64,000 bases of DNA from Cyanophora paradoxa CCMP329. Lineage: Eukaryota > Plantae > Glaucophyta. The position numbers and the translations under genes are program-made. Below, piece after piece: positions 10,041 through 64,000 of the stretch (the stretch's first letter is position 1; the number at the start of each line of letters is the position of its first letter). Below the pieces are notes generated by a model. The model made no database searches. It saw only the letters and a list, made by a program, of their open reading frames with translations, and was not told where the DNA came from. Where the stretch lies: NCBI GenBank assembly GCA_004431415.1, contig QPMI01000518.1, positions 1 through 64,000 of the forward strand, written 5' to 3'.

Positions 10041-11307
10041 CCCCGACGTCGCCACCCTTCAGCGCCAAGCAATTACGGCCCCCCATCGCCCCGCCCGCTC
10101 AAACATGCTCCCCGCAGAGGCAGTCCAAGGGAGGGCGAGGACGGCGTGCTACACGACGAAGGAGACGTCATCGGCTCGCCAACGCCACCCCTACGGCCCC
10201 CCTGCGCCCCTTCCACGCATTCCGGCTCCCCGCCCCGGCAGACCCGCTGTAGCTGCGGTCCCCGGGGGACAGAGGACAGCGTCCTCCGCATTGAGAGGCA
10301 CGTCATCAGCTCGCCCCGGCCGCCCTCAATGCCCATGCTCGCGGAACCCCGCCGGCGCCCCGCCCCACCCGCCTTCCGGCGCCTCGCACATGCTGCCCCC
10401 AATCACACGGCCACCGTGATTTTCCAGCTCCCATGTGGGCAATGCAGGGCGCGCGCGGGCATCCACACAGATAAGACATGCCACAAAATAGCAACACTGT
10501 GACAGAATACAACATGCACATCACACAACATTCGACTCACTTCGACCAACATGAGCAGGCGGCCGTCGGCACACCCTCATGCCACCGCCGCGGGCCCCAC
10601 GCGGAAGGGCGGAGGCGCGGGGAAGGGCAGCACAACGCGAGACGCTCGAAGGAGGCGGGGAAGGTGGCGACGCTTGAAGACAGCGGCGATCGCTTGAAGG
10701 CGGCAGCAGCGACGGTAGACGCTTAAAGACAAGACGCTTGAAGGCCACTGGAACCTGCGATCAGGAACATGCGAGGGCAGCAGCCTAAACCTTGGGCGAC
10801 CGATGTTAGCGGAATCAACACTGCACATGCGCAGAAAACGGGGCGCACGGTGGCACTCATTCTTGAGCCGTGTTCGCCGTAGACTATAACTAGGATGCGA
10901 CGACCCCGCGTGGTCATCCATCTGTCGTTGCCCGTGAGGGCGACACCCACGACGGGACGTCGACGCGGTCAACCTGTAATCGCCATGCCATCGTAGTCCG
11001 CTCACAATAGCTTCGCGCGGAAGAAGAAAGCACTCCATGTTAGAAAGACAAGCACAACCCATGGCCATGCGCGGAGGAAGGAACGCACGGTAAACCGCGG
11101 TCCAGATGAACAATGAGCTCATCGCTCATTCTTGTCGCACCGGCATGGATCCCTAGCACCATCCCACCCGACACATTCCTTCGGAAGCTCAGCCATGAGG
11201 CTCTCACGATGACATAAAAGCGCGGACCGTACCTGTGGCCGAGCAACTGCGCGGCCGCGTCAATATCAACGACCAGCTGACCGGCAGGCCGGGCCCGTCA
11301 ATATGCA

Positions 11308-12772: not shown

Positions 12773-13077
12773 AGGATAGCAATTGAGAACAAAAATCCCA
12801 AGCTAGAGTGCGTCGGCGGCGGTCACAGAGGCCAAGTCCGCAGCTGCAAGCAGAGGCCAAGCCCTGAAGTTCGCAGCTGCAAGCACGGCAGCGGGGCCAC
12901 AGCCCTGGCGGCGGTCTAGATAGATACATAGATTCCTTGCGGGCGCACACGTTGATTGTTTAGCAGAGGATAAATAACTACCAGTTCATTACCTAGGACA
13001 TGGACTACGTAGGCCGCCCGAAGAGAAAATGACCGGCGACAACGGCCAAATGGTTCGGGCGGAAGCTTGGATATTCG

Positions 13078-14419
13078 GTACCCGAAGATCTAGACCAGCC
13101 GTCCGGAACGGCTGCTCACATCGCATAGACCCTGGTTCGAATCCAGGGAGTGGGTCTTATTCGCCATCTTGCTTTCAGTCCACGGTACGAAGTTCGTTAG
13201 CTAGGACATGGACTAGAATATAGTAAGCCGCCTGGAGCGCAGCGGCGGGTCATCTCTCGCATGGTGCGCGCCTCCCCAACCTTCGCCACCGCGCCCCGCG
13301 CGACAAGCAGAGCGCAGGCAACCCCACTCGCAGGGCGCAGCGGCAGCCCATCTCTTACTTGGTGCGGGCCTCCCCGCACTGCGGCGCCGCGCCTCGCGCG
13401 ACGGAGCGGGCGCATGGATCTCGACTCAAGACGCCCGCGCGGCATGGGCGGCCGGAACGCAGCGGCGGACCATCTCTCGCTTGGTGCGCGCCTCCCCGCC
13501 CTTAAGCGCCGCGCCCCGCGCGACGAGGTGAGGGCAGGCGACCCGACCCGCAGCGCCTTCGCGCCAGGGCCGGGGCGCCCGGGGTGCAGCGGCGGGCCAT
13601 GTCTCGCTTGGTGCGAACCTCCCCGCCCTTCCCAGCCGCGCCCTGCGCGACGGAGCGGGCGCAGGTAGCTCTACTCGCGGTGCCTTCGCGGCGGGGGCGA
13701 CCGGGACGCAGCGGCGGCCCATCTATAGCTTCGTGCGCGCCTCCCCGCCATTCACCGCCGCGCCCCGCGCGACAAGCCGAGCGCAGTCGACCCGCCTCGC
13801 AGGGCGCAGTGCTAGCGGCGGACCATCTCTTACTTGGTGCGGGCCTCCAAGCACTTCGGCGCCGCGCCTCGCGCGACGGAACGGGCGCAGGGATCTCGAC
13901 TCACGACGCCCGCGCGGCGGGGCGGCCGGAACGCAGCGGCGGCCCATCTCTTGCTTAGTGCGCGCCTCCCCGACCTTCAGCGCCGCGCCCCGCGCGACGA
14001 GGTGAACGCAGGCGACCCAACTCGCGGCGCCTTCAATTCGCGTCAGGGCCGTGGCGGCCGGGGTGCAGCGGCGGCCCATGTCTCGCTTGGTGCGGCCCTC
14101 CCCGCCCTTCCACGCCGCGCCCTGTGCGACCGGACGGGCGCAGGTAGCTCGCCTCACCGAGTCGCGGCGCCTTCGCGGCGGGCGCGGCCCGGACGCAGCG
14201 GGTGCATACTGTGCTCTCCGCGTCCACGCCTCGCGCGACGGGGCGGGCACAGGGAGGTGAACTCGCAGCGTCCTCGCGCCGGCGGCGGCCGGGGCATAGC
14301 GGCGGCTCATCTCTCGCTTCGTGCGCACCTCCCCGCCCTTCGACGCCGCGCCCCGCGCGACTAGGTGAGCGCAGGCAACCCAACTCGAGGCGCTTTCGCG
14401 GCTGGACCGGGACGGCCGG
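13078..14419 (+). repeat. Composite repeat copy 2, with a different number and order of minisatellite units
   Basis: Direct repeat of 11308-12772. Contains a perfect T-arm CCTGG-TTCGAAT-CCAGG at 13131-13147. Confidence 0.85.
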
Positions 14420-15693
14420 GACTATCCGCACCGGCCACCCCCACAGGCCCGCCCAGCGGCCGCCCCGCCCCACCCAGCGTCCGCCCTGCCCCGTGGCCGC
14501 CCTGACCCGCCCCGCCCCGCCCCGCCCCGCCACGCCCCGCCCCGCGGCCGACAAACTAAATTGTACGAATACAAGTGTAATACTAGCTGGCTTCTCAGAA
14601 GTGAGAGCAGCGCCGCGGCGCTGGCAGTCATGCAGCCACAGACCTTAAGCTTCCAGAAGTTTAGTCCGACGAAAAAATAGTGGAGGGCATCACACCTGCC
14701 GCAATGAAAACATCATCCAAGGGATAACAGGAAAGTAGACATATACCGCTATAGGCAGGACGAACATGCAGAAAAGTCCAACGCAGGAACTTGGTCCGTG
14801 GACTTCATAACTTGCTCCTCCATCAGAGCGATGGAAGTCTTGCGTTTGCGCGAAATAAAGGTGTGGTTCGATCTTGATATCGTCATGACCTTCGTCATCT
14901 CCTCAACGCTGAAGTTCGCAATATCGAGGGCAATCCAATCGACTGCAGCAGCGTAAGGAGCTGTTTCGCATGTCGCAGACGGCCCCGGACGGACCTCGAC
15001 GGGCCGAAAACGGCGCGACCTTTTGGACATCCCGCTAGTTCGCGAGCTTTAACAATGGATGGAATTTGAATTTTGAACACGGCCGTGTCACGGCGGCTAT
15101 CAGCCGGCTGAGTTCGAGTTCGAGCTGGCTAGACCAAATTCTATATCCCCCCAAGCCATCTCCCCCCCCTTCCAAGCCACGGCCAGCTGCAGCTAGATTG
15201 CGGCCAGCCACGGACTTGCGCGGGAAAAGCAAAAGCGCTTATAGCTTAGCGTTCGGCGATCGAGATGCCGCTCTCTGTGCTGTCTGCCAAGGTCGGCTCA
15301 GCGTTCGGTTCCATTAGAGCGTGGCTGGGCGGCGCCAGCGATGGCAGGCCGCGGCACGGCCAGATTGGCGGCAGCACCTGCGGCAGCCAGGACGACCTCG
15401 GCGAGGACGTGAATCCAGACGACTTTGGCGACGCAGCTTTGAGCGAGCAAGTCGTTCAGCCTGCGCATGCAGCGCCAGCTGCGCATGCGACGGCCGCGGT
15501 CGCGCTGGCGCCTCCCGCGGCGGAGCCGGCGGGCGGGAGCGACTCCCCAGGCGGGAAGCTAGCTAGTCCGGCCTAGCCGAGGGAAGCTGACTAGCAAGCC
15601 GGCCTGCTGACCGTTACTGTGACCGTTGTGGCCGCGTGTGTACGCCACTGTGTACGAGGCCAAGTTCGAGCTCAAGTTTGCGCTGGGCTAATT

Positions 15694-33495: not shown

Positions 33496-36400
33496 TCAGC
33501 GGGGCCGGCGGGCCCCACCGTGGCCGCTTGGACCGGGTGCAGACGGCGGCCGCGCGGTGGGAGCGCCGCGGCCAGCGGGGCCGCTGGCGCCGCCGGGGTG
33601 GCAGGGGGCGTGGGCGAGGGCGGTGGGCGGGGCGGGGGCGGCGGGGGGCATCTTGGGGAGGCGGGCCTGGGCGCGGAGGGCGCGGGGCCCGAGCCGCTCG
33701 AGGGCGGTCTTGCCGTGGGGGAAGCGGCGCCAGCGGCGGCGGGGGAGGCCGGCGAGGTCCTCGGCCTCCTCGACGGCCTCCACGCAGGCCCGGCGCAGGC
33801 CCATGCAGAGGGTCTCGTACCCCTCCTCCCACGCCCGCCGCCGCCCCACCGCCGCGCACTCCTCCAGGAAGGTCCCCCGCAGGCCCTCCAGCCGCTCCAG
33901 GAGCTCGTCCACCTGCACGAGGGCGGCGGGCCGGTCCCGCCGCTGCCCGTCAGACTGAGGCTCTCACAAGGCCGCAGACGTCCAGCAAGCCGCGCGGGGC
34001 GCGGGGCGCGGCGCGGACCTTGTCGCCGCGCTCCTCGTCCTCCTCGTCGATCTCCATCTCCGACAGCGCCTCCATCGCCTCGTCCGCCCTGCGCGCACGC
34101 GCGCCCGCCCCGGTCACGGCGCCGCCCCGTTCACGCCAGGGCGGAGATCCGGCTAGGCAAGCTCCAACGATTTAGGGCTGCTTGGAGCCTGCGATCAGAG
34201 GTGGAGGCTCCGCTCCCACGAGCAGGAAGAGCTCTGGCTTTGTGGGGATCCCAGCTGGAGGGCTCGAGGGTGCGCGGGGGCGGGGCCCCGCCCCCCGCCC
34301 CAGGGCGCCCGGCCCACACGCACGCTTGGAGGGCGTCCTCGCAGATGGAGGCGAGGTCGAGGAGCAGCTTGTGGTACAGCCGCTTCCGCTCCTGCGCGCC
34401 CGCCCCCGCGCTCAGCCCCCGGCCCCGCGCCCACTCCGCGATCTATAGCTAGTATACGTGGATATTCGTCGACGGCGGGGCGGGGCGGGGCGGGGCGGGG
34501 CGGGGCGGGGCGGACGCGGTGGGCGGGGGACTCTCTGTGCTTCCGGATGGCCGCCTGCGCGCGGCGGCGGCACCGGAACAGGCGCGTCAGCGGAGGGGCG
34601 CGCGTGTGCCTAGCGAGGCGCGCGTGGGCGGGAGGGCGGGGCGGGGGCGCGCCGTGCTCCGCGCCGGCTGCTTCTTGCACTCGCAGGCGTCGCAGGGCGT
34701 CTCCCCGTACCCCGCCGCCGCCGCCGCCTCCGCCGCCGCCGTGTACTGCGCGGAGGTGAGGGGGCCGGCGGCGGCGCCCCTTCGAGGCGGCCCGGCCCCG
34801 GGGGCGCCGCACGACGCACGACGGCGATGGCTAGCTCCGAGTCGTTGATGCTCGTGCGGGCGAACTCCTGCAGGACCTGCCGGGGGAGGGCGCTCAGCGG
34901 CGCGGGTGCGGCGGCTGGGCGAGACGGCGGCGGGCGCCTCAAGCCCGTCTCGCCGAGCTCCTCAGGCTAAAGCAAAACAGCCCAAGAACGCCTTAAAACT
35001 ACCCGCAAAACAAAACAACCAAAAAAGCCTTGAAAACTGCCCTCATCGTATGCATCTCTCATGGCTAATTGCAGGCAGCTGTTCTGCATCGCGGGCACCT
35101 CGTCGGAGGGGAAGCCCCTGAACGGCTCCTCCTCGTCGTTCTCCTCCAGCTCGGGCGGGGGCGGCGCCGCCCCGTACCCCGCCTGGCCCCGCGGCCCCGG
35201 CTGCGCGCGCCCCGCCACGATCCCATCAGGCCGCGCGCGCCCTATCGAGGGGCGGGGCCGACCTGCGGGCCGAGGGGGCGGGCGGGGCCGGCCGGGGCGC
35301 GCCCGACCGGCCCGGGCCCGTCTCCATCCCACTCGTCACTCGGGACCTGAGCGGAGGCGATCGCGGGGCGCGAGTCAGACCGAGTCAGAGGGCCGAGGCG
35401 GCTCGCTGTCTCGAAGGCGGCGAGGCGGGGGACGGATCTCGCCCCATCAAGGCGGAATGGAGGGCGCACGGCGACGGCGCTGATGCCGTAGCGGTCGTCC
35501 CGCGTGGCCGCCTCCATCCCCGCCAGCCGCTCCGCCTCCTCCATCTCCTGCCCGCGCCTCGACGCCAGGCAGGCCCGATCGCGAGGCGCGGGGCCGGGCG
35601 GGGCGGGCGGGGCAGGACCTTCATCCAGTCCGGCTGCTTCGTCATGAGGGCGTGCACCAGCTGCGGGGCAAGGTTGTGAGGGGCGGCGGCCAGAGCGGGT
35701 AGACATAGATGCAGGCGGGGCGGCAGAGCCGCAGGCGAGCCCGCGCTCGAGGCGGGCGGGCGCGGGCGCGGGCGCGGGGCGGGAGGGAGGCGCGGACCAT
35801 GTCCCACTGGCGCTGGGCGGCGAAGCCCTGGGCGGCGGCCGCCATCTCCTGCCGGTCCCCCAGGAGCTTCTCCCCGTGCTGCCCGCGAGGTGAGCCGCGC
35901 CGGGCGGGGCGCCGCATGGCCGACTTGATCGTGGCTCCCGATCTTAAGATCTAGAATTCATCGGGTCCCGGCCGCGCCACGGTCCAGCGCGCCCGCGGGC
36001 GCGGACGCGGGCGATCTAGAGGCGCACTGGGGACGACGCTCAGCACGCGGGGGCGGGGCACCTTGGCGAGGGCGCGCCAGTTCTGCGGCCGGGCGCCGCT
36101 GGGCGGATTCGCCATCTCGCCCAGGCGCTCCACCTGCAGGCTTATGCTGCGCCGATCGCGAACGCAAACGCACAGTGAGCCGCAGGCGCGGCGAGACGGC
36201 AGCTCGAGGGGCGCGGGGCGCGCCGCTGGAGCATCTCCTCGGGCTTGGTGCAGAGGAGGCGGAAGTACATGTCCCGCGCGTCCACGTTTTGCTGCGCCGG
36301 AAGTCGGCCGGGAGCGGGGAGAACGGTGCCGCCGACCCGAAGGGGCGCCGCACCGCGTGCTTCTCGGAGGCGTTGTGCTTGGCGACGGCCGCGGCGCTCC

Positions 36401-37341
36401 TCGGCTGCTCTTCCGGGGGGCAGAAGCTGCAGAACTTGAGCGGCCGCATCGCCTCCCCGGCGAGCTGCCGGCGGCGAGCGTCGCGGTCACGGGCTCATGA
36501 TCATGATCAGGCTCTGAATCTAGGTCTAGACCGCCTTATTTAAGAGAGGGACGGACCGCGAGGCGGCAGAGCTCGGAGCGCCCGATGCGCTCCTGGAAGC
36601 CGCGCAGCGCCTCGCGCATCATCTCCTCCCCGCCGCCGCCGTCCACGATCTCCTGCACTTCCCTCATCGACGCCTGTGCGGCGCGGCCGATCGGCCGCCG
36701 GGCGTCAGCATGCGGCCAAGCCCCGGCGTGGTCGCTCTGGAGCGCCGAAGACGTCGACGCGCCTCAATGTCCTCCATCGAGTTGATGCCGTTGGGCATCA
36801 GCTCGCTCGACGCCAGCTGCGGCGAGCGGCGCCGTCGGCGGCTCAGCGGCCGGGGTTGGGGGCGGCGAGGGGCGGGAGCCGCGCCGCTCACCGGGATGCC
36901 GACGCCGAGCTTCGCGTACATAGCTGCGCGGGGACGCCGGGTTAGAGTCGCGGAGTTCGTCCCGGCCGCCCAGAAGGCGGGGGGGCACCCTTGCGCTCGT
37001 CGAGGTCCATGTGGCGCTCGCGGCGCGCCAGCTCCTCCCGCACCTTCGCCTCCAGGCGCCGCCCCGCGATCAGCTCGCCCGCCTGCGCACGTGCGCGCAC
37101 GCGCGGGGTCGGCGTGAGCGCCAGCACTGAATTTCCAAGAATTTCGGACTCGCCCGCCGCGGGTCATCTTCGAGGGCGAGGGCGTCGACGACGGCGGCGA
37201 TGTCCCCCGCGTCCGCGGCCGCGCACGCAGCCTGCCGGAACGGGCGCTTTCGAGTTCGCGACGGCGGCAAATGTATCTAGCTTCAAAGCTTCGCGCACCT
37301 TTGCCACGAAGTACGCGCGGTCCTTGCGCAATCTTCCAGTG

Positions 37342-37377
<36 letters not shown>

Positions 37378-49591: not shown

Positions 49592-49650
49592 CCCGATTAT
49601 CTGACCATTTTCAGTAAGACCATCTGAAATTCTGAATTTCTCAGTGTCAA

Positions 49651-50052
49651 CTAACTCGGAAATCGCAATACTCTATGTTTCTCCGATTTCTCCAACCCTG
49701 AAAACACACCTGTTATTCTCTCATCTATCTCATGAGATACTCTCGTGGTTTTTCTCTCTGCTTCTAATCCACAACTGAATATATCAATCGCCAACATACC
49801 TTCATTTGAGTAACAATGAGCAGTGCAATGGCTCTCATCCAGCAGAAGAACCATTGCAAAACCAGGAGGAGAAATACCACCATCGAAAATCTCGCAATGC
49901 TTGTGAACTACTCGAATACCTTGCTCTTGAATAATAGTTTGCAAGAACTGCATTAACCACCTGGTTGTTGTCTCCAAGTCCTCCATTCCTACTGCTAATT
50001 GGGTTCTGAATTTGTAATCCAGCATCACATGGAAGCCTCGATGAGTATTCAT
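49651..50052 (-). CDS. speD: Pyruvoyl-dependent S-adenosylmethionine decarboxylase proenzyme, short prokaryotic class (SpeD/SpeH-like)
   Basis: 133 aa. G-x-H-x-x-x-D at the N-terminus, PPGFAMVLLLD-ES-HCTAHCY (E/S self-cleavage site), then EG...IDIFSCG with the conserved Cys. Confidence 0.88.
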   Translation of the reverse strand: MNTHRGFHVMLDYKFRTQLAVGMEDLETTTRWLMQFLQTIIQEQGIRVVHKHCEIFDGGISPPGFAMVLLLDESHCTAHCYSNEGMLAIDIFSCGLEAERKTTRVSHEIDERITGVFSGLEKSEKHRVLRFPS

Positions 50053-50538: not shown

Positions 50539-51582
50539 CTATGGAGCAGTATCCTGTCCGAAAATGGGGAAGTAGCGATTTGTGCCGTAATATTCTGCAT
50601 ATGTATTCTGTTTTGCAATAGCATCGGTTCTCTCAGCATAGAGAATGCATTTGTAGATACCAAACCTGGTGGCTCTCACCAAGAACTGGTAATCTTCAAG
50701 ACCGAAATTCACTCCATGATATATAATTTATGGGGTTGGGTCATCAATCACATCTGGTTCCTGGTAAAACCCTGTTGTGAAGATATCTGCAACGTTTACC
50801 CCTCGAAGTGCCGAAACAGCTGCTATATCTGTCCTCAGTCCCATAATCATAGTATTGTAAACTCCAACCTCAGTTACAAACAAATCATAGGTAAATGTCA
50901 AATTGTTATAAACACAATATCCTCGACCGAAATGGTTTGATGCTTGAACAAAGAATAGGTAATTATGACCTGTTTGATTGTTGTTTGCTCTGCACATAGA
51001 TAGCATTGCTGTGGGAAGCGGAATATTTCTTCTTACTCGATCAGTTCCTGTTATAATAACCAATTCCGAATTTTCAAGAGTGACAGAGGAAGCAACATAG
51101 AAATGTAGAAAAGGTTGCTGTGCAACTGGTGTATAGAAACGTATTCGTTGGGGATTCTCTACATTTTGTTCAAGAGTATCTGGGACATCATTATACGAAA
51201 CTGATGAAGAGAGTTGTCCTGAAACACGACAACCACCACCAATAAATGCTCCTCCTGATCTCACAGTAACAGCAGCAGAATTCTTATCGAAATCGAGGGC
51301 TTTCAGATCAACACTGTAAGCATCAGGACCTCCATTAGTAGGTTGGAAGAAATTCGCATTTGAGACAAGGAGTCGAGTGGTTTTGACCACACCAGAATTC
51401 TTATCAGCTCTCAGTTCTTTAACTCGAATAATCGAATTTTTATCAAAGGAGTTACCATTGGAATTGGGTCTCTCTGTGGATTCTAAACCACGAACTTCAT
51501 CATTCACTTCATGCTGGCGAAAATGCATTGCAGGGGATCCAAGGGAATATATAGGCAGTTGAACTCGATTATATTCACCCAT
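50539..51582 (-). CDS. Short fibre paralogue 3 (shared N-terminal domain, non-C1q C-terminus), with one in-frame TAA at 50728-50730
   Basis: The N-terminus (SF..NSIIRVKELRADKNSG.VKTT.L.VSN...NSA..V.SGGA.IG.G) aligns with the next two paralogues. The frame stays open for 62 codons after the TAA, giving 347 codons, the same size as the paralogues. Confidence 0.65.
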
Positions 51583-51617
51583 TGCTTCTTTTACTAAGAA
51601 GGAAAGAAAAATAATGT

Positions 51618-51884
51618 TCATTGCTCTTCTGTGACATTGTTATACTCGATGCCTTTCTTTACAGTTCCCCTTTGGAATGCCTGTAATACAATGGCTTCCT
51701 TTGAGGTTGGTATCTGAACTCCTGCTGAAATACAAGAGTGGATCTCTTTCTGAACAATCTCATCAATTGCAATTCTTGCCCTGTTGTGAACCACATTATC
51801 AATCCAATCCTGAACAGAAGCAGCGCAATATTCCATTCCCAACTTCTCAATATCAGATAGAACTACTTGGTATATATTTGACAT
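51618..51884 (-). CDS. 88-aa phage-type protein, putative fibre assembly partner or chaperone
   Basis: The pattern EK..MEY.A...QDWIDN.VHNRARIAIDEIV......C...GVQIP.SKEA.V..AF..G.VK resembles small proteins I recall lying downstream of C1q-fibre genes in aquatic tailed phages, and it sits in the same position here. Not verified by search. Confidence 0.6.
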   Translation of the reverse strand: MSNIYQVVLSDIEKLGMEYCAASVQDWIDNVVHNRARIAIDEIVQKEIHSCISAGVQIPTSKEAIVLQAFQRGTVKKGIEYNNVTEEQ

Positions 51885-51905
51885 CTCTACTTAATAGAGA
51901 GAAAA

Positions 51906-52925
51906 TTATGTGATACTTAGAAGTTCACCTGTGAAAAGTGTTCTACTTGAATAACTACCTGTGGAACCTGTGACAAGTGTTACATACTCACCAGCAGGAA
52001 CATTGATAATTGCACTGAGAGTAAGAGGTTTGGTTGTGATAGTGGAATTAGCTTCTACTGAAATGTTAACTCCATTGGGTAAAAGATTATTTTTCAGAAA
52101 ACTAAGACTTATTGCAGCACTTGTTGTTGAATTGGTATATGCTGTAAATCTATAATCACCTGCAACAAGAGCTGTAAACCTTCCATTAGTAACATCGAAT
52201 GACCCTGTATTATTTATCAAAACGGTTGTCCAATTGATCAGAGCGGCTGCACTTGTAGCAACATGAGTATATCCAAGTTGAACAGAAAATCGTGGCTGAG
52301 AAACATATTTTAAATAGCTTGAATTCAGAGTCAAACGATTGGCTTCCAGTGTTGCAAAAAGATCACTGTTACGTTTTAACAGCAGATTAACATCTGCTCC
52401 TGTATCTATTTCAGGAGTGACCACCTTGGTTGATGCTGTTATTATTGATTCTGTGGAATTGGGAATACTAATTCCAGCATTTGCTGTTACCAATCCTGTA
52501 AATGTGCTTGTTCCTGTTATGCTTACTTGATTGGCTGTAAGGGTTCCATCAATCCTTGCCCCATCTCCAATATAAGCGCCTCCACTTCTTACTACAAGAG
52601 CTGAGTTATTGATGGTGTTGTCAAAGGTAACAATCTTTGGTGTGGTGAACCCTCCCACATCATCATAAATTGCTGAATCTGATACAATCTGACCTGATTG
52701 AACTTGGTTCTTGTTTGAGACTATTAGACCTGTGGTTCTCACCTTGCCTGCATTTCGATCACATCGAATTTCTTTGCATCTGATCACAGAATGTTGAGAG
52801 AATGAATCGGCTCCTGTGGTCTCTGTGCAAATGAAACCTGGGGTAGCATCTGTTACTGTATGGTTGAGTTGATGCAATTTCGGCGCTGCATAACAGAAAA
52901 CAGGAACAGCTATTTGTGTAGACAT
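51906..52925 (-). CDS. Short fibre paralogue 2 with C-terminal C1q/TNF-like head
   Basis: 339 aa with the shared N-terminal domain and a beta-rich shaft. PRFSV...INNTGSFDVTNGRFTALVAGDYRF...AGEYV.L...FTGELL is a C1q signature. Confidence 0.8.
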   Translation of the reverse strand: MSTQIAVPVFCYAAPKLHQLNHTVTDATPGFICTETTGADSFSQHSVIRCKEIRCDRNAGKVRTTGLIVSNKNQVQSGQIVSDSAIYDDVGGFTTPKIVTFDNTINNSALVVRSGGAYIGDGARIDGTLTANQVSITGTSTFTGLVTANAGISIPNSTESIITASTKVVTPEIDTGADVNLLLKRNSDLFATLEANRLTLNSSYLKYVSQPRFSVQLGYTHVATSAAALINWTTVLINNTGSFDVTNGRFTALVAGDYRFTAYTNSTTSAAISLSFLKNNLLPNGVNISVEANSTITTKPLTLSAIINVPAGEYVTLVTGSTGSYSSRTLFTGELLSIT

Positions 52926-52947
52926 TCTTTATATTATACAAACAATA

Positions 52948-54006
52948 TTATGTAGCACTTACCAGGTAAACCAACAAGATGTGATTGTTTGGAAAGTCAA
53001 TACTACCTAACATACAGTAAATTTGAAGACTGTCTCCCATGGTGAGGGTAATAAGAGCTTCGTAGCACATCTGATTCCTGCTTGATTGACTTGCATATGA
53101 AAGAATCAGATTTGTATTGTTTCCGTTTATTCTTAGTCCAATCTGGGAGGCAGTTGCAGTAATGTCTTCCGTAATTGTAAAATAGACCCTATAAACTCCT
53201 GAAACAGGGGCTGTAAATGTTGCTGGATACAGTTTGTCAAAATGACCCTCATTATTCACAAGATATGTTCCAACTGGAAAAGAAAGTGTTGGGGTGCCGG
53301 AACTAACACTTGTTCCAAAAATCTGAGCGTTTGCTTGTTGTCCTGAAATACACATTCTTGGGCAATAGCTGCGTTTAAGACCACTGTTTGTTGGAAATGT
53401 GATTGCTTTCAGATCTGTTATTGTCTTTTCGAGAGTGAAAATGATATCTCCGTTTCGTTTATAATTCACATTTGCATCTGTCCCATTATCCATCTCAGGT
53501 GCATTAACTCTTGTAGTAGCTATTCGAGTAACATAGTTAACATCTCCTGAGAGACCACCATTAAAGGTCATCAATCCTGTGAATACACTTGTCCCACTCA
53601 CATTTAATTGGTTTGCTGTAACAGTTCCTGCTACATTTGCTCCATCTCCAATGTAGGCTCCTCCACTCTTGACTACAAGAGCAGAATTATTACTTGTGTT
53701 ACCAAAAGTAACTATCTGAGCTGTGGTAAATCCACCCACATTATCATATATTGCTGAATCGGGGACTACTTGACCCGCTTGAACTTGATTTTTATTCGAG
53801 ATAATAATTCCTGTGGTTCTTATCTTGCCTCCATTTCGATCACAACGAATTTCTTTGACTCTAAGTATATTGTTCTCAGTGAAAGAGGTAATGCTTGTAG
53901 TTTCAGTGCATATATTCCCGGGTGTAGAGTCGACTACTTCATGAGAGGTGCTATGGAGTGATTTGGCTGCAAGTTCATAGTTTGGGATTTCTAAAAGGGA
54001 GGTCAT
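52948..54006 (-). CDS. Short fibre paralogue 1 with C-terminal C1q/TNF-like head
   Basis: Likely start MTSLLEIP at 54006 (352 aa). The N-terminal ~150 aa are highly similar to paralogue 2. VNNEGHFD...TFTAPVSGVYRVYF...LTMGDSLQI is a C1q signature. Confidence 0.8.
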   Translation of the reverse strand: MTSLLEIPNYELAAKSLHSTSHEVVDSTPGNICTETTSITSFTENNILRVKEIRCDRNGGKIRTTGIIISNKNQVQAGQVVPDSAIYDNVGGFTTAQIVTFGNTSNNSALVVKSGGAYIGDGANVAGTVTANQLNVSGTSVFTGLMTFNGGLSGDVNYVTRIATTRVNAPEMDNGTDANVNYKRNGDIIFTLEKTITDLKAITFPTNSGLKRSYCPRMCISGQQANAQIFGTSVSSGTPTLSFPVGTYLVNNEGHFDKLYPATFTAPVSGVYRVYFTITEDITATASQIGLRINGNNTNLILSYASQSSRNQMCYEALITLTMGDSLQIYCMLGSIDFPNNHILLVYLVSAT

Positions 54007-54025
54007 CTTTATAATTACGAAATAG

Positions 54026-57000
54026 TTAAATTGCGACAGCAATGTAATGAATTGTAACTGGAAATCCTGGTCTGTCAAAAGAACTTAATGGAACTATGTC
54101 AAGCTCACAAGTGAAATAGCTACTGTAAACTTGTTTAAGCCTAACATACATTCGATAGTAGTAGGCTGTCTCATTGTGTTGTATACCAGTTGTTACAATA
54201 GGAGGGTTAGCAAAGCTGCTGTTGAAATTAATAGTGAGGTTAAACCTATGGTCAGGATTTGCCCAAAGATAAGGAGTAGTGTAAACATACGTTCCTGCTT
54301 GGATTTTCCCATTAAAATATGCATTGAGTTGACTGGAAAGATCTGCCTCTGTAATACATCGACTGATGGTCGCATTATTTGAGGGGTTCATAGCATAGAA
54401 ATTTCTTGCATAGGCATTTCCACGAACAAGTAAGGTTTTATCAAAGTAATTCTGCGAATTGTGGAAGAACCATGTTTCTTCAAACATAGGTCCTGCTGGT
54501 TCTACAATCTGACCTGATCCTACATACATTGTGTTGTTGGCTCTGATTGTGGTGGCTGTGAAAGGATCGAGGGTGGGTTTATTGGTCAGGTCATTGTAGT
54601 TGCCCGAAAATAAAGCGGGTTTGTTATAGATATCTGTATTCCAATCATGAGTATGTGCAAAATCTGTAATATCTGCTTTGACATGAGTGTGAGCAAAATC
54701 TGTAATCTCACTCTTGACATGAGTGTGTGCAAAATCTGTAATCTCACTCTTGACATGAGTGTGTGCAAAATCTGTAATCTGTGACTTTGTGTGAGTGTGT
54801 GCGAAATCTGTGATTTCAGATTTAAAATGAGTGTGAGCGAAATTCGTAATATCTGCTCTTGTGTGGGTGTGTGCAAAATCTGTTATCTGGGATTTTGTGT
54901 GAGTGTGTGCAAAATCTGTGATCTCTGCTCTTGTGTGGGTATGTGCTCGATTATTCAGATCAAGGAAGCTACCTGAATATGCAACAGGGTGTAGATTAGA
55001 TGGGGTGGGTTTATTAATGAGATCATTATAATCTCCTGTGAAAGATATGATTTTCAGTTCACCCCTTCCAACATAATCAGAAGGGAGGTCAATCTTAATG
55101 GGCATGATAGCTGGATCATCAGGGATCTCATACTCACCTCCTGGGTGAACCACAGGGAATGTTTGATTGCTTTCAGTGTGAACAAAGAAGTTGCATGCTG
55201 TTACTGTTCCATCAATTACCCCACCTGTGAGAGGGAGGTAATCTCCTGTCACACCAATATTGATACCTGCAATGATTGTATTTAGTTCGGTTTCATCTAT
55301 GTAGTTTTGGGCTTGAAGGTAATCCTCTGTAACCACTCTTGATATAGTTTCATTGTGAATATTTTTTGCAGCCATTCTTTGATTAGCTTCCAGAACCCCA
55401 CCATAATTCGTTTTTATCCATGCAAGTTCTGCCCTTCCATAATTATCATTTGCAGTTCCCACTATGGGAATGTAGGAGTATTTATCTCGACTGAAAACTA
55501 TCATTGGTCTTGATCCATCCAGACTGCTCACATCTGCAACATGAACCTGTATAGCTGCATTGTAATTTTGGTAGGTTGCTGGGTCTGTTGGAACTCTAAA
55601 AGTATCTGTGGGTATGTCAACCTCCATGTAGCTTGACACAAAGATATTTGGTATGGTTGCTCCTGGTTCTGGTGGTGGATTATAAGAGCCTGGTAATGTT
55701 CTAATATGAAGTGGTCCTCTCATAGCTGAATTTGCAAGTGTCCCTTCCACATGAACATAGTGGTGATTCAAAAAGATCCTTTCAGGGACATTGCAAGTCT
55801 GGTAAAGAGAAACTCCCAGAGTAGCAAGAGGCTCTACTTTTGCGAATTCTGGTTGGTCATTGATCTCATCCCAAGTATGTTCATGTTTGCTTGGTGGGAA
55901 CTCAGTTGGAATCCCATCAATTTCTCCCCAATCATGCCTGTGATCCTCTGGTGGAAACTTTTCAGGTTTGCCCAAGATCTCATCCCAATCATGATTGTGA
56001 TCCTCTGGTGGAAATCTTGCTGGTTTGTTATTGATCTGCTCCCAATCTGGGAAGAACTCCCAAATCTCTGGGCGAAATCCATCTGGTAATAATTCTTCAT
56101 GGGGTTCATATGGTTGCTCATAATCAACAACTGGTGGTTCGAGACCATCTGCTAAATATTCCTCATGGGGTTCATAATTCTGCTCATATTCATACTCTTG
56201 TGGATCTAAACCATCTGGTAAATACTCTTCCTCATTGGGATCATATTGATCATATTCATACTCTTGTGGGTCGAAACCATCAGGTAGGTATTCCTCCTCA
56301 TCTGGAACGAATTGGTATTCGTCAAGCTCCAAAATATCAATTTCAGGAGGTAAATATTGCTCATCAATTTGCTTTCTTGGTTCAATTATAGGTTTATTTC
56401 GAACCTGCTCCCAACTCACAATGTGTTGACCAAAAGGAACTGTCTCATCTGCTGTGTATTCTCTTCCTGGTTGCTTTTTGGGTGTTAAATCTGGTGGATC
56501 CCATGGTAGTGGGAAGGGAACTGGGACAGGTCCATAATACTCAAAGATCTCTCTTATGGTCTTCTCACTTACAAGTTTCTCTCCATTTGCATAGACATTG
56601 CTTCCATGGATATTTCGCCATTGTCTGGTTCTAATACCAAGATCTTTGGTGTTTGTCACCAAAGGTAAAAGGTGCCTATCCATTTCGACAAGGTCTGGGT
56701 GTAAATGAACTGTTACTGGTTGAGTGGGGCTACTGTTGACAGTGATAGACGCCTTATTCTTTGCTGTATCACCAGGTAGTTGGAAACCGAATTGCGCATT
56801 AGAAGCCGAATTCGCCACAATATCTCGTGGATAAACATTGTTAGTGAACTCGATTTTGTTGGTTTCTCCATGGGGGCTATCTGTAATATTTCGGGAATTT
56901 GTGCAATTGCATTTGATCCTTCATTATAGATTCTCAAACCACTCTGATGCCCACCCTTCTCATTTTGAACATTGAATATTAACCTACCACTATCGAATCG

Positions 57001-57315
57001 AGTTGGAATATCTGGATGGGTTCCACTGGTTTTCAGTTTTCTTGGTCTGCTCCTGGTTGCTTTAATCTGGGCTACTTGATTCGATTTCACATTCCCCATG
57101 CTGAAAGCAACACTCACATCCTCCTTTTCGGGATCCATTTCGTTTATTGAAAGTGCATGCTCTCTTGGGTGAGTCTTTGAGGGTTCATCTGCACTGTGAT
57201 CAATTGAGATTGACCCTCTGGCTGTCAAGTTATCGAAATTCACATGTTTGTTATCTGCCTTCCCTCTTCCTGATGAGGGAATGGTTTGAAGGTTTGCTGG
57301 GTAATTGAAACTCAT
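54026..57315 (-). CDS. Long fibre protein (~1,100 aa if ORFs 56713-57315 and 54026-56818 are joined across a 1-nt frameshift at ~56890), with phage tail-fibre His repeats and a C-terminal H-type-lectin/gp53-like domain
   Basis: Contains about nine HTHxK(S/A)xITDFA repeats, three H.H.W..I...P..FPP repeats, (S/T)GxYNDLxNKP motifs, acidic EEYLPDG repeats and the C-terminus INFNSSFANPPIV...IHYIAVA. The downstream frame is open upstream of its GTG and joins the upstream ORF if one A is added at GAAAT. Confidence 0.75.
54647..54946 (-). repeat. 36-bp coding tandem repeat (HTHxKxxITDFA), ~8.5 copies
   Basis: Periodic GTGTGTGCAAAATCTGTAATCTC... on the + strand. Confidence 0.9.
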
Positions 57316-57364: not shown

Positions 57365-58906
57365 ATGCCCCTTCGTGTAATTCTCTCATTATCAGGTGGG
57401 GGAGCTCGTGGTATAATTATTACGAGATTGTTAAAAGAAATCGAAACTCGAACAGGAAAAAGAGTAATTGACCTTGTTGATCTGGTGAGTGGAACATCCA
57501 CTGGTGGGATAATTGCGATTGGTCTCAATGTGAAAAATCCCGAATTTCCAAACGAACCTAAACTTACTGCAACCGATTTGCATTCCACTTATCTCAATCA
57601 ACTCCCCTTAATCTTTGCAAATCCCAGAAATATTATTGATAATGCACTTTTCAACACCAAGTATGATGTGACCCCATTGGAGACAGCCATTCTCACTGTT
57701 ACTGGTGAGTCTCTCATTCAAGACTCTCTCAAAGATGTAGTGATCACAAGTTTTGACACTGTGAGTATGAAGCCCATTTTTATCACCAATGATAACTCCT
57801 ACAAATCCATCCCCAGCAAGATTGCTGCAAGATCCACCTCTGCTGCTCCAACATATTTCTCACCTGTGAACTATGATGGGATGTCTCTAATTGATGGTGC
57901 AATCTCAGGTAACAACAATCCCAGTGTCTGTGGTTACAGTCATGCTAAGAAGATCTATGATGATGATGATGATATTATAGTGATAAGTATATCCTGTGGT
58001 GAAGTCAATGAAACAGATGCTCCAAATGTGGGTTACTCTTATGAAGATGTGAACAGCTGGGGCATCCTCTCTTGGATTGCTTCGACCTCTGGAAGTCCAT
58101 TAATCAATATGTTGATGGCTGCAAGTGAACTGTCTGCTCTGGAAAAGATGCAAGAGTTTCTCCCATACAATGATGATCAAGGATATGCAAGATATTATAG
58201 ACTCTCTGTTCCACTTCCAAAGACCATAGTAAACTCTTTGGATGATACCTCTAAAATACCAGATATGATAGATGCAACCGAAATATATATAGCAGCAAAC
58301 ACTGTGATGATTGATAGACTCTGTGATTTACTGGTTGCAAATTACGAAATCAAGAACCCTGCAAGGTTCTATATATCATCCACTCTGAATAACATACCTC
58401 CCATTGATGCTAACTGGTATCTTCTATCAGATGGTGCATTCACTGCTTCATCATCAAAAATTGGAAGGGAGGCATTTAAAGCAAGACCTTCCTTGACAGG
58501 TTGGGAAGCAAATGCATCTGCTCCTGATGGGATATGGAGTGTTCACACTGAGTATCTCCAAGTAACCTTCCCATACATATTTGAGGTTGCATCTATAATT
58601 GCATATGGTTCTGGTGTAACAAACGCTTTTATTAAGACCTTCAATGTTGCAACATCACAAGATGGTGTTTCCTGGTCATTTATCAAGTATGAAGGTGTCA
58701 ACAGAGTGTTTATGTGTGAAACTATTAATAATGCCCACAACAGTGGTGATGTCTCATACAGTTCTGGGTATCCCACCTCTATTAGAGACGTTTTCTATAT
58801 TGGCTACCCTCTGAGGACAAGGTATATTCGAATTTATCCACTTGTATACATCAACACCCCAACTATGAGAGTGGATGTCACAGGTGCATTTATTCGAAGT
58901 GTATGA
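57365..58906 (+). CDS. Patatin-like phospholipase fused to a C-terminal F5/8 type C (discoidin) domain
   Basis: LSLSGGGARG (oxyanion loop), GTSTGG (nucleophile Ser), SAAPTYF and IDGA (catalytic Asp). The C-terminal FTASS...W...EYLQV.F...S.DG.SW...TRYIRIYP...MRVDV.G is the FA58C pattern. Confidence 0.9.
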   Translation: MPLRVILSLSGGGARGIIITRLLKEIETRTGKRVIDLVDLVSGTSTGGIIAIGLNVKNPEFPNEPKLTATDLHSTYLNQLPLIFANPRNIIDNALFNTKYDVTPLETAILTVTGESLIQDSLKDVVITSFDTVSMKPIFITNDNSYKSIPSKIAARSTSAAPTYFSPVNYDGMSLIDGAISGNNNPSVCGYSHAKKIYDDDDDIIVISISCGEVNETDAPNVGYSYEDVNSWGILSWIASTSGSPLINMLMAASELSALEKMQEFLPYNDDQGYARYYRLSVPLPKTIVNSLDDTSKIPDMIDATEIYIAANTVMIDRLCDLLVANYEIKNPARFYISSTLNNIPPIDANWYLLSDGAFTASSSKIGREAFKARPSLTGWEANASAPDGIWSVHTEYLQVTFPYIFEVASIIAYGSGVTNAFIKTFNVATSQDGVSWSFIKYEGVNRVFMCETINNAHNSGDVSYSSGYPTSIRDVFYIGYPLRTRYIRIYPLVYINTPTMRVDVTGAFIRSV

Positions 58907-60955: not shown

Positions 60956-63900
60956 TTAGAGCCCAAATGGAATGCTGTGAATTCCATCGTCTAATATCTT
61001 CCTTTTGCTATCGAGTTGGTTTAGAGCCACCCTTCTGCTCTCCAAATCATATAGGTTGTGGTCTTGCCTTCGCTTGTTTACTACTGCTACTGTTTTGGTG
61101 ATGCCTTCAAACAGGCATCTCTTGAAATCATCAAAGTGAACCTCTTTGGAGGAAGTCCCAGACATCTTTATTTTATCAAAGGTCTCAGTTCTGAAAGCAT
61201 AGAGTTTCGATCTCAGACCTACATACTCCACAATCTTTGCATTTGGAAACTCGTTTTTATATTTACCTGGAATCAAACGATTGCTCCTATCAAAGAGAGG
61301 GTGGGTGGGATCATAATTACTGCAATCCAGGTGTCCAGCAATTCGCTTCATCTCATTATTTAGATCATTGGTATGCAGCAGGAGACAGAAAGAATCTGTA
61401 TCATGGAATAGTAGCTCTGCTGTTTCCCAAGTTCTCCTCACCACATCATAAAAGAACCTGCTATTGTGGAGTTTCGCGAAATCCAGCACAAAAGCACCAA
61501 TTGCAACAGGTTTATCTAAGTGAACATGCTTGGAATACATCTCAAAGGCAACAGCATTTTCGTTTAATACATTGGTTGCCTTGATGAGTGGACTTGCAGC
61601 ATATTTCTTGCAAAGTTTCTCACTGTTTGCAATCTTTACCACAGAGCGACCCCTGCATGATTCGAGGCATTTACCATAGATTGCATTGTTCATTAATTTA
61701 AAGAAGTCACTCTCGAATCTGGACATAGATTGGCGCCTCAGTTTCGTATTTAGATCAATATAACTCTTCATGAATGCAGAGGTTGCAAATGAGAGAACCC
61801 TGTGAACCTTCGTGATTATAATACCTTTGCTCACAAGATAGATCAAGAGAGGTTGGGAAATCACATAGTTATTTTTGGGTGAGAATGTTGCAGTGAGTTT
61901 GGGGTCTTTGCTTATCTTCTCACCTGTGATATCCAGTAACTTTCTTTGATACCCACCAGCATTTCGGTGGTGACATGTTCTTTATTAACTACAAGTGGAA
62001 AATCGTAATGATCTGTGAGAGTTTGTGGGTATTCCAGGTCAACTTCAATAAAGGCACTTCGTCCTTGGGTCTCTTTAAGTGCCTCTGAGACATCTTCCCA
62101 TCGAAAATCTCCAATGGGCAGTTCTTGACTGAGAGCAAAACCATACAGATTATTTGCATCCAAGAGAACTATATGGTCATCTGGGTTTTCCACCTTTGCA
62201 TATCGAGTAGGCATTGTAGCAAACCCACCTCGAATTGCTCTCTCAATGAATTCGTATTGCCCTACATCACTGATCTGCTCGATCTTTGCTCTGGTATAAA
62301 TGAGCATTGCATCCCAGGATAATCCAGGAGCCGAAACATAGTGGGCAGGATCCAATCCATATTGGGAAAACGCCAATTCTCGGAAAGTCTGGAATTTACT
62401 CATAAGATCACCAGAATCCACTGCCTGGAAGTCCATGAAGTGCGAAGCATCTATGAATTTCCACATGCCCCATTGCAGGGAGAGGTATTGATCGAAATTC
62501 TTGCTCAGGATCTCAACACGAAGTTTATCATCTTGCTGTGCAATTTTGCGGAATATTTCGTGTCCACATTCATCCATGTGATCCACCACAATTGCTACTT
62601 TCGTTTGCTTTGAGATTCTCCTGTGGAGGTTGCAGTTTCGACATGCTTTCCCAATAAATGCTCCTGATTGATGACAATGGTCTCTCACTGGGAAATTCTC
62701 ATGGGTAAATCGTTCAGCACAGATATAACAGTGTTTAGTGATCTTGTATTGTGCTTTCTGCTCTTCTGTGAGTGGGTGCATTGGAATATTGGTGAATAGA
62801 GTGCGGATTACTTGGGGTCTGATCTCTGTGAGAGTGGTAAACAGAGCACCAAGTGGATCTGATCCCTCGAAATAATGAGAGATCACCTCATCCCCCATCA
62901 CAACTGTTAAAGAAACCGATTTGACCGCTCTTTTACTGCGGTTCTCATCAATTGGAACCGAGTGACTATCCATTTTTACATAGCAGATAGTGGGAAGCCA
63001 CACAGTTTTGCGAAGGTGTTGAAGCCCAAATGCAATGTGACTTCCAGATTTCGGGCATTTACCTTTGCTCTCCCTCCAATCAATGCAGCGATTGGCTTCT
63101 AAGTGAATGTCCAGCTTCTCCTGAGTTCTGAAACGAGACAGACAGGTCTCACAGTAATAAATGCGACCATCATGGGCTTTATCAAAGGTGGTTTTCAGAA
63201 GTCTACTCAGAGACATGATGGTGATATAATGCCCTCTATCATCCTCTTCGTTTTCGATTAATAAAAGGTTAATCTTGGTCTTTCTCCTGGGGTTGCTGGA
63301 TTGATGGAGAGGATAGAAACACTGTGCTTGATTATCTGCACCATAAATGTTGATTGAGAGTTCAGGGTTCTGCTCCTCAAATCGATCAATAACCTCTGCA
63401 TCACAGGCAACTGGAAACTGGATGCCTTCGAAATTGAGTTCGTTTAACCATCTTCTATACTGGCTGGGTTCATTGCTCTTGTGTTTATTAATATCATTTC
63501 GGTGCAGGTAAGCCAAGATTGCATACTTGAAGCAGTCTTGACCATCAATATTCTTAACATTCACAGTTGCTCTCTTTGATCCAATCCACTCAGGTGTTGA
63601 GAAGAAGCAACCACCCACAGGAGCATAAGACATTATTACCACTCTCAGCATCTCAATGCGATCCAGTCTGTAACTGTCAACCTGCATCATCTGTTCCTGC
63701 ATAGATTGAAGGGCATTTCGCAGTTCAACATCAATATTTCGTGATCTTGTGATGACAAAGTAATCACTGTAAATGAATTTGGTGATCCACACCCTTGGAT
63801 CACTCACTTTGGTGAATTTACAAATGAAGGTCAACCGAGTTTTAATTGCTCTCAGGTCTTGGAGTTTCTGTCTGAGTCTCTGTGGTAGAGTAGTTGCAAT

Positions 63901-64000
63901 TCTCTCCAAGAATTCAATCCCATCTTGGATAACCTCCCCTCTTGCTCGATAGGTCAACCAAGAATATGCTTTGTTCATTGCTTCCCCATCTTCAATCTCT
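60956..64000 (-). CDS. polB: Protein-primed family B DNA polymerase (Polinton/adintovirus type), open at the window edge, split by a 1-nt frameshift at ~61955
   Basis: N-terminal region NVKN...CFKYAILA...FPV...FEEQNP...INLLLI...GHY, C2H2 finger, EndoVII-like VRDHCH.SG...G.AC..CN insert. Polymerase motifs LDANNLYG, KLMNNAIYGK, HDTDS, GKYKNE and GLRSKLY. The frame upstream of the 63978 ATG has no stop. Confidence 0.93.

What the first reader, a model, noticed from the sequence alone, without database searches (positions are those of the whole stretch)
50539..57315. Phage-style modular fibre cassette in a eukaryotic Polinton-like virus
Seen: five co-oriented genes. Three are ~340-350-aa paralogues with a conserved N-terminal domain and divergent tips (two different C1q heads, one unrelated tip). 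One is an 88-aa gene directly after a C1q fibre, and one is a ~1,100-aa fibre with HxH repeats and a lectin-like tip. Known: HxH repeats and C1q/H-lectin tips are features of trimeric tailed-phage fibres, and canonical Polintons carry a small core gene set. Inference: the virion displays several alternative receptor-binding fibres docked through a common anchor, a host-range or helper-virus attachment system assembled from bacteriophage parts.
Basis: partly seen in the sequence, partly recalled or inferred. Interest (0 to 1): 0.82.

Follow-up and report, generated by a model that had tools for sequence, protein, structure and literature searches.

The report
Tip-swapping fibres of algal provirus
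A multi-copy Polinton-like virus integrated in what is likely an alga carries three genes that share a rare front end but have different, partly phage-like tips, and the tips differ between copies, so they likely act as exchangeable attachment fibres; phage-like fibres in such viruses are already reported, but this shared front end and the tip exchange were not found in the papers searched.

Summary
The cassette is real, with corrections. It lies in a low-GC Polinton-type element (pPolB, rve integrase, palindromic left end) that leaves the window before any capsid gene. The host is likely Cyanophora paradoxa.

F1 (352 aa), F2 (339 aa) and F3 share a rare ~125-aa N-terminal domain. F1 and F2 end in C1q heads. 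F3 is 284 aa, not ~345: its stop is followed by an in-frame stump of an alternative tip that other copies carry without the stop. The 1,096-codon HxH/H-lectin fibre lacks the shared domain.

Tips vary between copies. Contigs rejoin across the F1 head, and Cyanophora relatives with 94-96% identical N-termini carry unrelated tips. The 88-aa gene belongs to a tailed-phage family that sits directly behind C1q genes (32 of 41 distinct upstream genes, 1 of 41 downstream).

Phage-like PLV fibres are published, including this PTR-PTR-H-lectin architecture in a Cyanophora PLV. The shared domain, C1q tips, partner gene and tip exchange were not found in seven paper searches, and no earlier scan note matched these genes. 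Capsid docking, trimerisation and receptor are inferred. New variant of a known kind.

The parts
54026..57315 (-). Long fibre gene, 1,096 codons if read as one gene; frameshift near 56,871 in this assembly. Acidic repeats, phage-tail HxH repeats, nine 12-aa HTH (PTR) repeats, H-type-lectin-like tip. Lacks the shared N-terminal domain.
52948..54006 (-). F1, 352 aa: shared N-terminal domain (about residues 1-125), short shaft, C1q head. The head is replaced in other copies.
51906..52925 (-). F2, 339 aa: shared N-terminal domain, short shaft, C1q head only 27% identical to that of F1.
51618..51884 (-). 88-aa helical protein of an unnamed tailed-phage family encoded directly behind C1q fibre genes; likely a fibre assembly or tip accessory protein (inferred).
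50728..51582 (-). F3, 284 aa (297 from the upstream ATG at 51621): shared N-terminal domain plus a non-C1q tip of unknown family (type A).
50539..50727 (-). 62 open codons in frame behind the F3 stop, without ATG: C-terminal half of an alternative (type B) F3 tip, 39 of 60 identical to the end of homologue P0062.
57365..58906 (+). Patatin-like phospholipase fused to an F5/8 type C (discoidin) domain, divergent from the fibre cassette; likely an entry protein (inferred).
   Evidence: architecture reported for glaucophyte PLVs in PMC12220804
59373..60790 (-). rve-type integrase, split by a frameshift near 60,397 in this assembly.
60956..63978 (-). [quoted passage not shown]
48361..48455 (.). Left end of the low-GC element: 95-nt palindrome (fold -33.2 kcal/mol, z -11), followed by iteron-like repeats to about 49,600.

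Best explanation
The cassette is likely the attachment module of a multi-copy endogenous Polinton-like virus: three paralogues share a conserved N-terminal domain that would dock each predicted trimeric fibre on the capsid, and their tips differ between copies of the element, likely by recombination. Shown: the shared domain, two divergent C1q heads and a third unrelated tip; different tips behind near-identical N-termini in relatives; head replacement between conserved flanks in other copies; the stump of a second F3 tip behind the F3 stop; the phage-type linkage of the 88-aa gene to C1q genes. Inferred: F1-F3 form homotrimers (from C1q/TNF-fold knowledge); the shared domain binds the penton or capsid surface; the 88-aa protein helps fold or caps the C1q fibre and came from a tailed phage together with a C1q gene; the tips bind host surface glycans, after which the patatin-discoidin protein helps breach the membrane; the long HxH/H-lectin fibre attaches by its own, different N-terminus. 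The many integrated copies would serve as the pool of tips, and homologous recombination in the conserved N-terminal domain and flanks would exchange them.
For: Element context: GC falls from about 0.67 to 0.39-0.43 at 48.3-48.4 kb; pPolB, rve and patatin-F5/8; terminal palindrome. Shared domain is rare: 7 of 8 hits at E<=0.001 among 1.84e9 representatives; the named ones are multi-copy Cyanophora paradoxa genes. Modularity: P0066/P0071/P0072 versus P0074 have 115-117 of 122 identical N-terminal residues but tips without BLAST similarity (E>=1.4); P0065 versus P0074 88% N-terminus, 33% tip. The P0066 tip is a phage module (PHROG 34132, E 6e-44; 40-44% to Vibrio and Aeromonas phage proteins). 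Copy variation: three distinct contigs in each of X1, X3 and X13 match F1 up to residues 223-226 and again from 346-353 with other sequence between, which is exactly the head; similar joints cross the F2 shaft and head. Single contigs with the window's F1 and F2 tips have depth 477 and 496 in X1, against 1,540-2,760 for backbone contigs (table 8; a hint only). F3: some contigs end at the type A stop and continue into other DNA (loose end at 50,718), and two X1 contigs run into the stump in frame with ten codons of which 7 match P0062 residues 206-215 (translated by hand). 88-aa family: C1q in 32 of 41 distinct upstream genes against 1 of 41 downstream; terminase in 6 of 6 near-complete carriers, A32 ATPase in 0 of 41; C1q upstream in both annotated phages. 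Precedent: Ltf fibre in Gezel-14T virions; hypervariable C1q heads behind conserved N-termini in marine phages.
Against: No capsid, penton, packaging ATPase or protease gene lies in the part of the element in the window, and the rest could not be read. The N-terminal domain and shaft of F2 model at pLDDT under 50, so their fold is unknown. The long fibre lacks the shared domain. The shared domain has no detected phage or prokaryote relative. C1q heads also occur in pandoraviruses, pithoviruses and Fadolivirus, and the C1q tree is mostly unresolved and has no root, so a phage donor for the heads is not shown. The F3 tip has no evidence of being a receptor-binding domain. The joints do not show what lies between the flanks, so very divergent alleles and true swaps cannot be told apart for F1 and F2. 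Of 16 Cyanophora gene models, 10 are N-terminus-only fragments, so many copies may be decayed or mis-modelled. No listed contig was seen to bridge the type A tip-stump junction, so it could be an assembly chimera.
Confidence: 0.6

Rival explanations
1. [quoted passage not shown]
For: Three co-oriented paralogues with a shared N-terminus; DSLV2 precedent with co-purification data (PMC12724248 Results); the F1 and F2 shafts are of similar length.
Against: F3 is 55-68 aa shorter and has a non-C1q tip. F1 and F2 heads are only 27% identical and change independently in other copies. No collar domain PF07484. The cluster is not next to a minor capsid gene. An F1/F2 mixed trimer remains possible.
Confidence: 0.13
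2. The fibres are virion parts but bind a helper giant virus or bacteria (hitchhiking), not the algal host surface.
For: C1q proteins are common in giant viruses. DSLV2 fibres bind Synechococcus LPS. The 88-aa gene and the best phage match of the F2 head come from freshwater and marine phages, including cyanophages. The host likely has a cyanobacterial-type plastid with peptidoglycan (recalled).
Against: A patatin-discoidin gene beside the cassette fits independent entry into the host cell, the reading given for PLVs in PMC12220804 and for Gezel-14T.
Confidence: 0.12
3. The genes are not virion fibres of this element. They are cargo of a capsid-less or decaying element, or non-structural surface or secreted proteins, and tip diversity is neutral drift and gene conversion.
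For: No capsid gene in the window; three frameshifts and a stump in this assembly; many truncated gene models in the sister family; no fold for the N-terminal domain.
Against: The frameshifts are absent from the covering short-read contigs. F1, F2, F3 and the 88-aa gene are open. Variation is concentrated in the tips, with conserved flanks. A Cyanophora PLV with the same long-fibre architecture is in a published PLV set, where capsid genes were a selection criterion for the authors' own assemblies.
Confidence: 0.15

Closest known systems
Phage-like fibre proteins of PLVs, including the PTR-PTR-H_lectin protein of a Cyanophora paradoxa PLV and patatin-F5/8 fusions of glaucophyte PLVs (PMC12220804, section 13 part 1 and supplement search)
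   Same: Long fibre architecture, patatin-discoidin gene, Polinton-type context, likely the same host species.
   Different: That paper has no C1q mention in text or in the two supplement files held, and the parts read describe no paralogue set with a shared N-terminal domain, no 88-aa gene and no tip exchange.
Ltf fibre of PLV Gezel-14T (bioRxiv 10.1101/2022.07.28.501842, passages)
   Same: Phage-like fibre gene in a PLV, found in purified particles.
   Different: One T4 gp36-like fibre; no set of paralogues with alternative tips in the passages read.
Tripartite tail proteins of virophage DSLV2 and Aquatic Virophage 1 lineage (PMC12724248, Results read in full)
   Same: Three consecutive co-oriented fibre paralogues of phage origin in a small eukaryotic DNA virus.
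   Different: Collar domain and gp37-like needle, 196-247 aa, heterotrimer, next to mCP; here a different N-terminal domain, C1q or unrelated tips, and no adjacent mCP.
C1q-domain putative receptor-binding proteins of marine phages (PMC3909814, passages)
   Different: Tailed phages of bacteria; their N-termini do not match the shared domain.
eCIS tail fibres with eBAP anchor domains (PMC12923769, passages)
   Same: Works alike: a conserved N-terminal anchor carrying diverse C-terminal heads, among them C1q and H-lectin.
   Different: Bacterial contractile injection systems; anchors bind a baseplate; homology to the domain here was not tested and none is claimed.

Membership tests
Polinton / Polinton-like virus | Protein-primed PolB | tested here: met
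   PF03175 E 4.5e-5 (23 bits, under the 25.8 cut-off, on the larger piece of a frameshifted gene)
Polinton / Polinton-like virus | rve integrase or tyrosine recombinase | tested here: met
   PF00665 E 0.003 (under cut-off), PHROG 956 E 7.5e-11
Polinton / Polinton-like virus | Discrete insertion with GC content unlike the host | tested here: met
Polinton / Polinton-like virus | Terminal inverted repeats and target-site duplication | not testable with these tools
   Only the left end is in the window (palindrome); no genome is held
Polinton / Polinton-like virus | Double jelly-roll MCP, penton, A32 ATPase | not testable with these tools
   None among the 14 ORFs scanned in the 15.6 kb visible; the element runs off the window
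C1q-tipped trimeric fibre | C-terminal C1q/TNF-fold head | tested here: met
   F1 and F2; not F3
C1q-tipped trimeric fibre | Homotrimer with elongated shaft | not tested
   Only a monomer was modelled; N-terminus and shaft under pLDDT 50
C1q-tipped trimeric fibre | N-terminal domain binds the particle | not testable with these tools
   The element's penton and MCP are not available
DSLV2-type tripartite tail | Three consecutive co-oriented paralogues | tested here: met
   F1, F2, F3, with the 88-aa gene between F2 and F3
DSLV2-type tripartite tail | Phage tail collar domain PF07484 in all three | tested here: not met
   No Collar hit at E<=0.1 in F1-F3
DSLV2-type tripartite tail | Last gene adjacent to the minor capsid gene | tested here: not met
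   Downstream are a zinc-finger/endonuclease-like ORF, AdoMetDC and the element end
Tail fibre assembly chaperones (Tfa / Phage_tail_APC) | Small gene directly downstream of the fibre gene | tested here: met
Tail fibre assembly chaperones (Tfa / Phage_tail_APC) | Sequence or fold of a known chaperone family | tested here: inconclusive
   Confident helical model (pLDDT 89.9); the searches run give no assignment either way

The most novel reading that the evidence does not exclude
The shared N-terminal domain is an undescribed capsid-docking module of glaucophyte Polinton-like viruses, and the integrated copies act as a standing archive of receptor tips, including silent in-frame tip halves parked behind a stop codon. 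Recombination at fixed boundaries, or read-through, switches them on: programmed receptor switching in a eukaryotic provirus, with a phage-derived dedicated C1q-fibre chaperone.
Probability: 0.17. Interest if true: 0.8.

Novelty: new variant of a known kind. Interest (0 to 1): 0.5.

Why it matters
How PLVs and virophages attach, and what sets their host or helper-virus range, is open, and no fibre-to-capsid anchor for PLVs turned up in the papers read here. A conserved docking domain with naturally exchanged tips, many alleles in one cultured alga, makes this testable: the anchor-penton contact, the ligand of each tip, and tip exchange between proviral copies. The session also links an unnamed, abundant aquatic phage family (88 aa) to C1q fibre genes, and shows that it has moved into a eukaryotic virus in the same gene order. 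The broad claim that PLVs borrow phage fibre parts is already published.

Tried and rejected
Whole genome: none held, so the right half of the element and its capsid genes could not be read.

Relatives with context: searches of viral contigs with F1, alignment A3, pPolB and P0062, of metagenome contigs with A3 and patatin and of genome contigs with A3 found none. The integrase gave one weak 49-aa match (L083), not followed up. Word-index homologue searches with F1 residues 1-140 and with the long-fibre N-terminal piece found none.

Complex prediction of F2 residues 150-339 x3 with the 88-aa protein x3 gave no verdict (score 0.16, mark 0.34; alignments not used). It is no evidence either way.

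Fold searches for the 88-aa model gave no clear match (best Z 4.7, ribbon-helix-helix-like and helical rows; Foldseek no E<=0.001), and the PDB profile search gave none. ESM Atlas gave only sub-0.9 leads for the shared domain and the F3 tip. A recalled idea that the P0066 tip is a self-cleaving trimerisation chaperone was not supported by Pfam, NCBIfam or PDB searches.

The C1q tree (40 rows, 23 of 37 inner branches open, no animal or giant-virus rows) placed the six anchor-bearing heads with three phage heads at 87/82; donor undecided. The NCLDV capsid search over 41 records was uninformative because the control did not ring. PF03354 terminase missed 5 of 5 records; PF03237 was then used.

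Two joints that suggest anchor-tip fusions (55,212 to 53,645, in frame by arithmetic; 52,583 to 51,349) were not used, since short shared motifs could explain them. Summed contig depth (anchors 7-35 times higher than the F1/F2 tips) was not used as copy number. No RNA holder was listed.

Read-through of the F3 stop as a simple nonsense mutation was rejected: the stump repeats the second half of a tip domain, and other copies stop at the same codon.
Full report
Setting. The window is GC-rich eukaryotic DNA up to about 48.3 kb and then a 0.39-0.43 GC island that runs to the window end. The island starts with a 95-nt palindrome at 48,361-48,455 (-33.2 kcal/mol, z -11, 0 of 200 shuffles as stable). 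It holds AdoMetDC, a zinc-finger/endonuclease-like ORF, the fibre cassette, a patatin-F5/8 fusion, an rve integrase and a protein-primed PolB. No capsid, penton, ATPase or protease gene is among the 14 ORFs scanned, and no genome is held. The element is Polinton-type by its replication and integration genes; its virion module is untested. Nineteen of 24 listed runs, all one coded organism, hold half or more of its words, and hundreds of variant contigs lay on it per run, so it is a multi-copy family. The host is likely Cyanophora paradoxa. This is inferred from the names of the closest named homologues, from a paper describing the same protein architectures in that species and from unchecked scan notes. 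No host gene of this window was tested.

The observation. F1 (352 aa), F2 (339 aa) and F3 share about 125 N-terminal residues (F1/F2 87 of 135, F1/F3 45 of 118, F2/F3 48 of 118) while the F1/F2 tips share 34 of 127. F1 and F2 end in C1q domains. The F2 model is confident only in the head, which matches solved C1q heads. In the viral library the best matches are phage C1q proteins and also pandoravirus, pithovirus and Fadolivirus C1q proteins. The long fibre has phage-tail HxH repeats (PHROG tail families; PDB 9D93; 323 phage records) and a weak H-lectin tip. It is split by a frameshift near 56,871. The covering contigs in X1, X3 and X13 carry one more base there, and contigs show the same kind of difference at the integrase and polymerase breaks, so these are likely errors or defects of this one assembled copy. 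The long fibre lacks the shared domain.

F3 needs correcting. It stops at 50,728, at 284 aa from the start that aligns with its paralogues. The 62 codons after the stop are 39 of 60 identical to the C-terminus of homologue P0062, whose N-terminal two thirds align with F3 (37% over 193). F3's own last 77 residues are only faintly similar to the stump. In X3 and X13 some contigs match through the stop and then diverge, so the stop is the real end of tip type A. In X1 two contigs enter the stump in frame from other sequence; its ten codons, translated by hand table 7, match P0062 residues 206-215 at 7 of 10. So type B is a real F3 ending in other copies, and the window shows type A followed by a type B remnant. 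That is the footprint expected from tip replacement, or an assembly chimera of two copies; I saw no contig that settles it.

The shared domain. A profile of F1-F3 found 8 proteins at E<=0.001 among 1.84 billion representatives; 7 match the N-terminal domain and 1 a C1q head. Of the 7, three have C1q tips (one under the Pfam cut-off), one the F3-type tip, one a phage-like non-C1q tip, and two are fragments. Three clusters are Cyanophora paradoxa gene models, 16 proteins in all: 5 full length, 1 tip only, 10 N-terminus only. Among the full-length ones, P0066, P0071 and P0072 share 115-117 of 122 N-terminal residues with P0074 but no tip similarity (BLAST E>=1.4), and P0065 and P0074 share 88% of the N-terminus and 33% of their C1q tips. 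This is direct evidence that the domain is joined to exchangeable C-terminal modules, in a sister family. The domain has no Pfam, PHROG or NCBIfam family apart from a weak bactofilin hit on the F2 shaft (E 0.012), and no hit in the 80 phage loci.

Variation among copies of this family. Three distinct contigs, each seen in X1, X3 and X13, match F1 to residues 223-226 and resume at 346-353, with unknown sequence in between; this interval is the C1q head. Joints across F2 cover residues 131-180, 133-242, 201-323 and 274-332. Six or seven contigs per run keep the 88-aa gene but differ just upstream of its start. Single contigs with the window's F1 and F2 tips have depth 477 and 496 in X1, against 1,540-2,760 for backbone contigs, a hint that these tips are minority alleles. 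HTH repeat number also varies (joints at 54,650-54,940). The joints cannot tell divergent alleles from unrelated replacements.

The 88-aa gene. It has 60 relatives at 39-63% identity in the protein search and 334 in IMG/VR, of which the best 80 were kept. Seventy-three of 80 loci had an adjacent upstream ORF, 48 distinct; I scanned 41 and left out 7 near-duplicates. C1q was found in 32 of 41 at E<=0.01 (29 over the cut-off) and Phage_tail_APC in 5. Of 41 distinct downstream ORFs, 1 had C1q. In 5 of the 7 loci without an adjacent ORF, a C1q ORF ends within about 200 nt upstream. Both annotated phages with the gene, Synechococcus phage S-SRM01 and Limnohabitans phage DC33, have a C1q gene directly before it. 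Terminase is present in 9 of 41 carrier records and in 6 of 6 near-complete ones; A32 ATPase in 0 of 41. The C1q gene plus 88-aa gene pair is therefore a tailed-phage module, kept in the same order here. A role in fibre assembly is inferred from position alone. The loci are related to one another, so the counts are not independent events.

Mechanism. Most likely F1-F3 are short trimeric fibres (trimer from established C1q/TNF-fold behaviour, recalled) mounted on the particle by the shared domain, with tips that bind host surface ligands and are exchanged among proviral copies by recombination in conserved flanks. The long fibre is a separate HxH-shaft lectin fibre, and the patatin-discoidin protein likely acts at entry. 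Confidence 0.6. Rivals: heterotrimer (0.13), helper-virus or bacterial target (0.12), non-virion cargo (0.15).

Literature. PMC12220804 (passages, section 13 part 1 of 2, search of 2 supplement files) reports that most PLVs encode phage-like fibres, one Cyanophora paradoxa PLV with PTR-PTR-H_lectin, and patatin-discoidin fusions in glaucophyte PLVs; C1q has 0 occurrences in text and held supplements. bioRxiv 10.1101/2022.07.28.501842 (passages): Ltf in Gezel-14T particles. PMC12724248 (abstract and Results): three collar-domain tail proteins of virophage DSLV2 form a heterotrimer. PMC3909814 (passages): hypervariable C1q heads in marine phages. PMC12923769 (passages): anchor plus variable head in eCIS. 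bioRxiv 10.1101/2025.10.09.676808 (passages): tail fibre and discoidin genes in Tetraselmis PLVs, C1q 0. PMC8502044 (passages): adintovirus-like sequences in Cyanophora contigs. PMC10120064 and 10.64898/2026.06.19.733378 had no fibre or Cyanophora mention. 10.64898/2026.07.28.741278 (passages): terminal palindromes in PLVs. Seven searches listed no paper on C1q-tipped PLV or virophage fibres; 'virophage + C1q + fiber' gave 0. Subscription journals, bioRxiv supplements and any cut part of the PMC12220804 tables were not seen and could list C1q.

Verdict. A real feature, partly as described. The headline idea is published, in part for what is likely this host. The shared docking-type domain with exchanged tips, the C1q-88-aa phage module and the in-frame tip stump are new details with real support. 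New variant of a known kind; interest 0.5.

Noticed in passing
window 48,361-48,455: Terminal palindrome with mismatched inner arms, on an element that encodes pPolB; a preprint links such ends mainly to non-pPolB elements.
   Followed up: partly
window 48,767-49,602: Iteron-like arrays near the left end: four ~65-nt direct repeats, then two blocks of mirror-image 9-nt repeats.
   Followed up: no
window 48,292-48,357: Exact 32-nt tandem duplication just outside the palindrome.
   Followed up: no
window 49,651-50,052 (-): S-adenosylmethionine decarboxylase gene in a PLV (PF02675, E 6e-11).
   Followed up: no
window 56,871; 60,397; 61,955: Three single-base frameshifts (long fibre, integrase, polymerase) where short-read contigs show one more base, likely assembly errors.
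   Followed up: partly
window 54,610-54,961: The number of 36-nt HTH repeats differs among copies (joints), suggesting fibre length variation.
   Followed up: partly
window 36,000-48,300: Host-side inverted duplication of about 12 kb centred near 42,000 (inner arms 97-100% complementary) with helicase-like motifs in its translation (likeness recalled, not tested).
   Followed up: no
window 4,800-14,500: Several GC-rich satellite arrays with periods of about 120-300 nt.
   Followed up: no
L069, L072, L075: Phage loci with two matches to the 88-aa family.
   Followed up: no
L082 (PQ492659.1): Limnohabitans phage DC33, 39 kb with a C1q fibre gene, is filed under Inoviridae in its record, which looks like a misclassification.
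   Followed up: no
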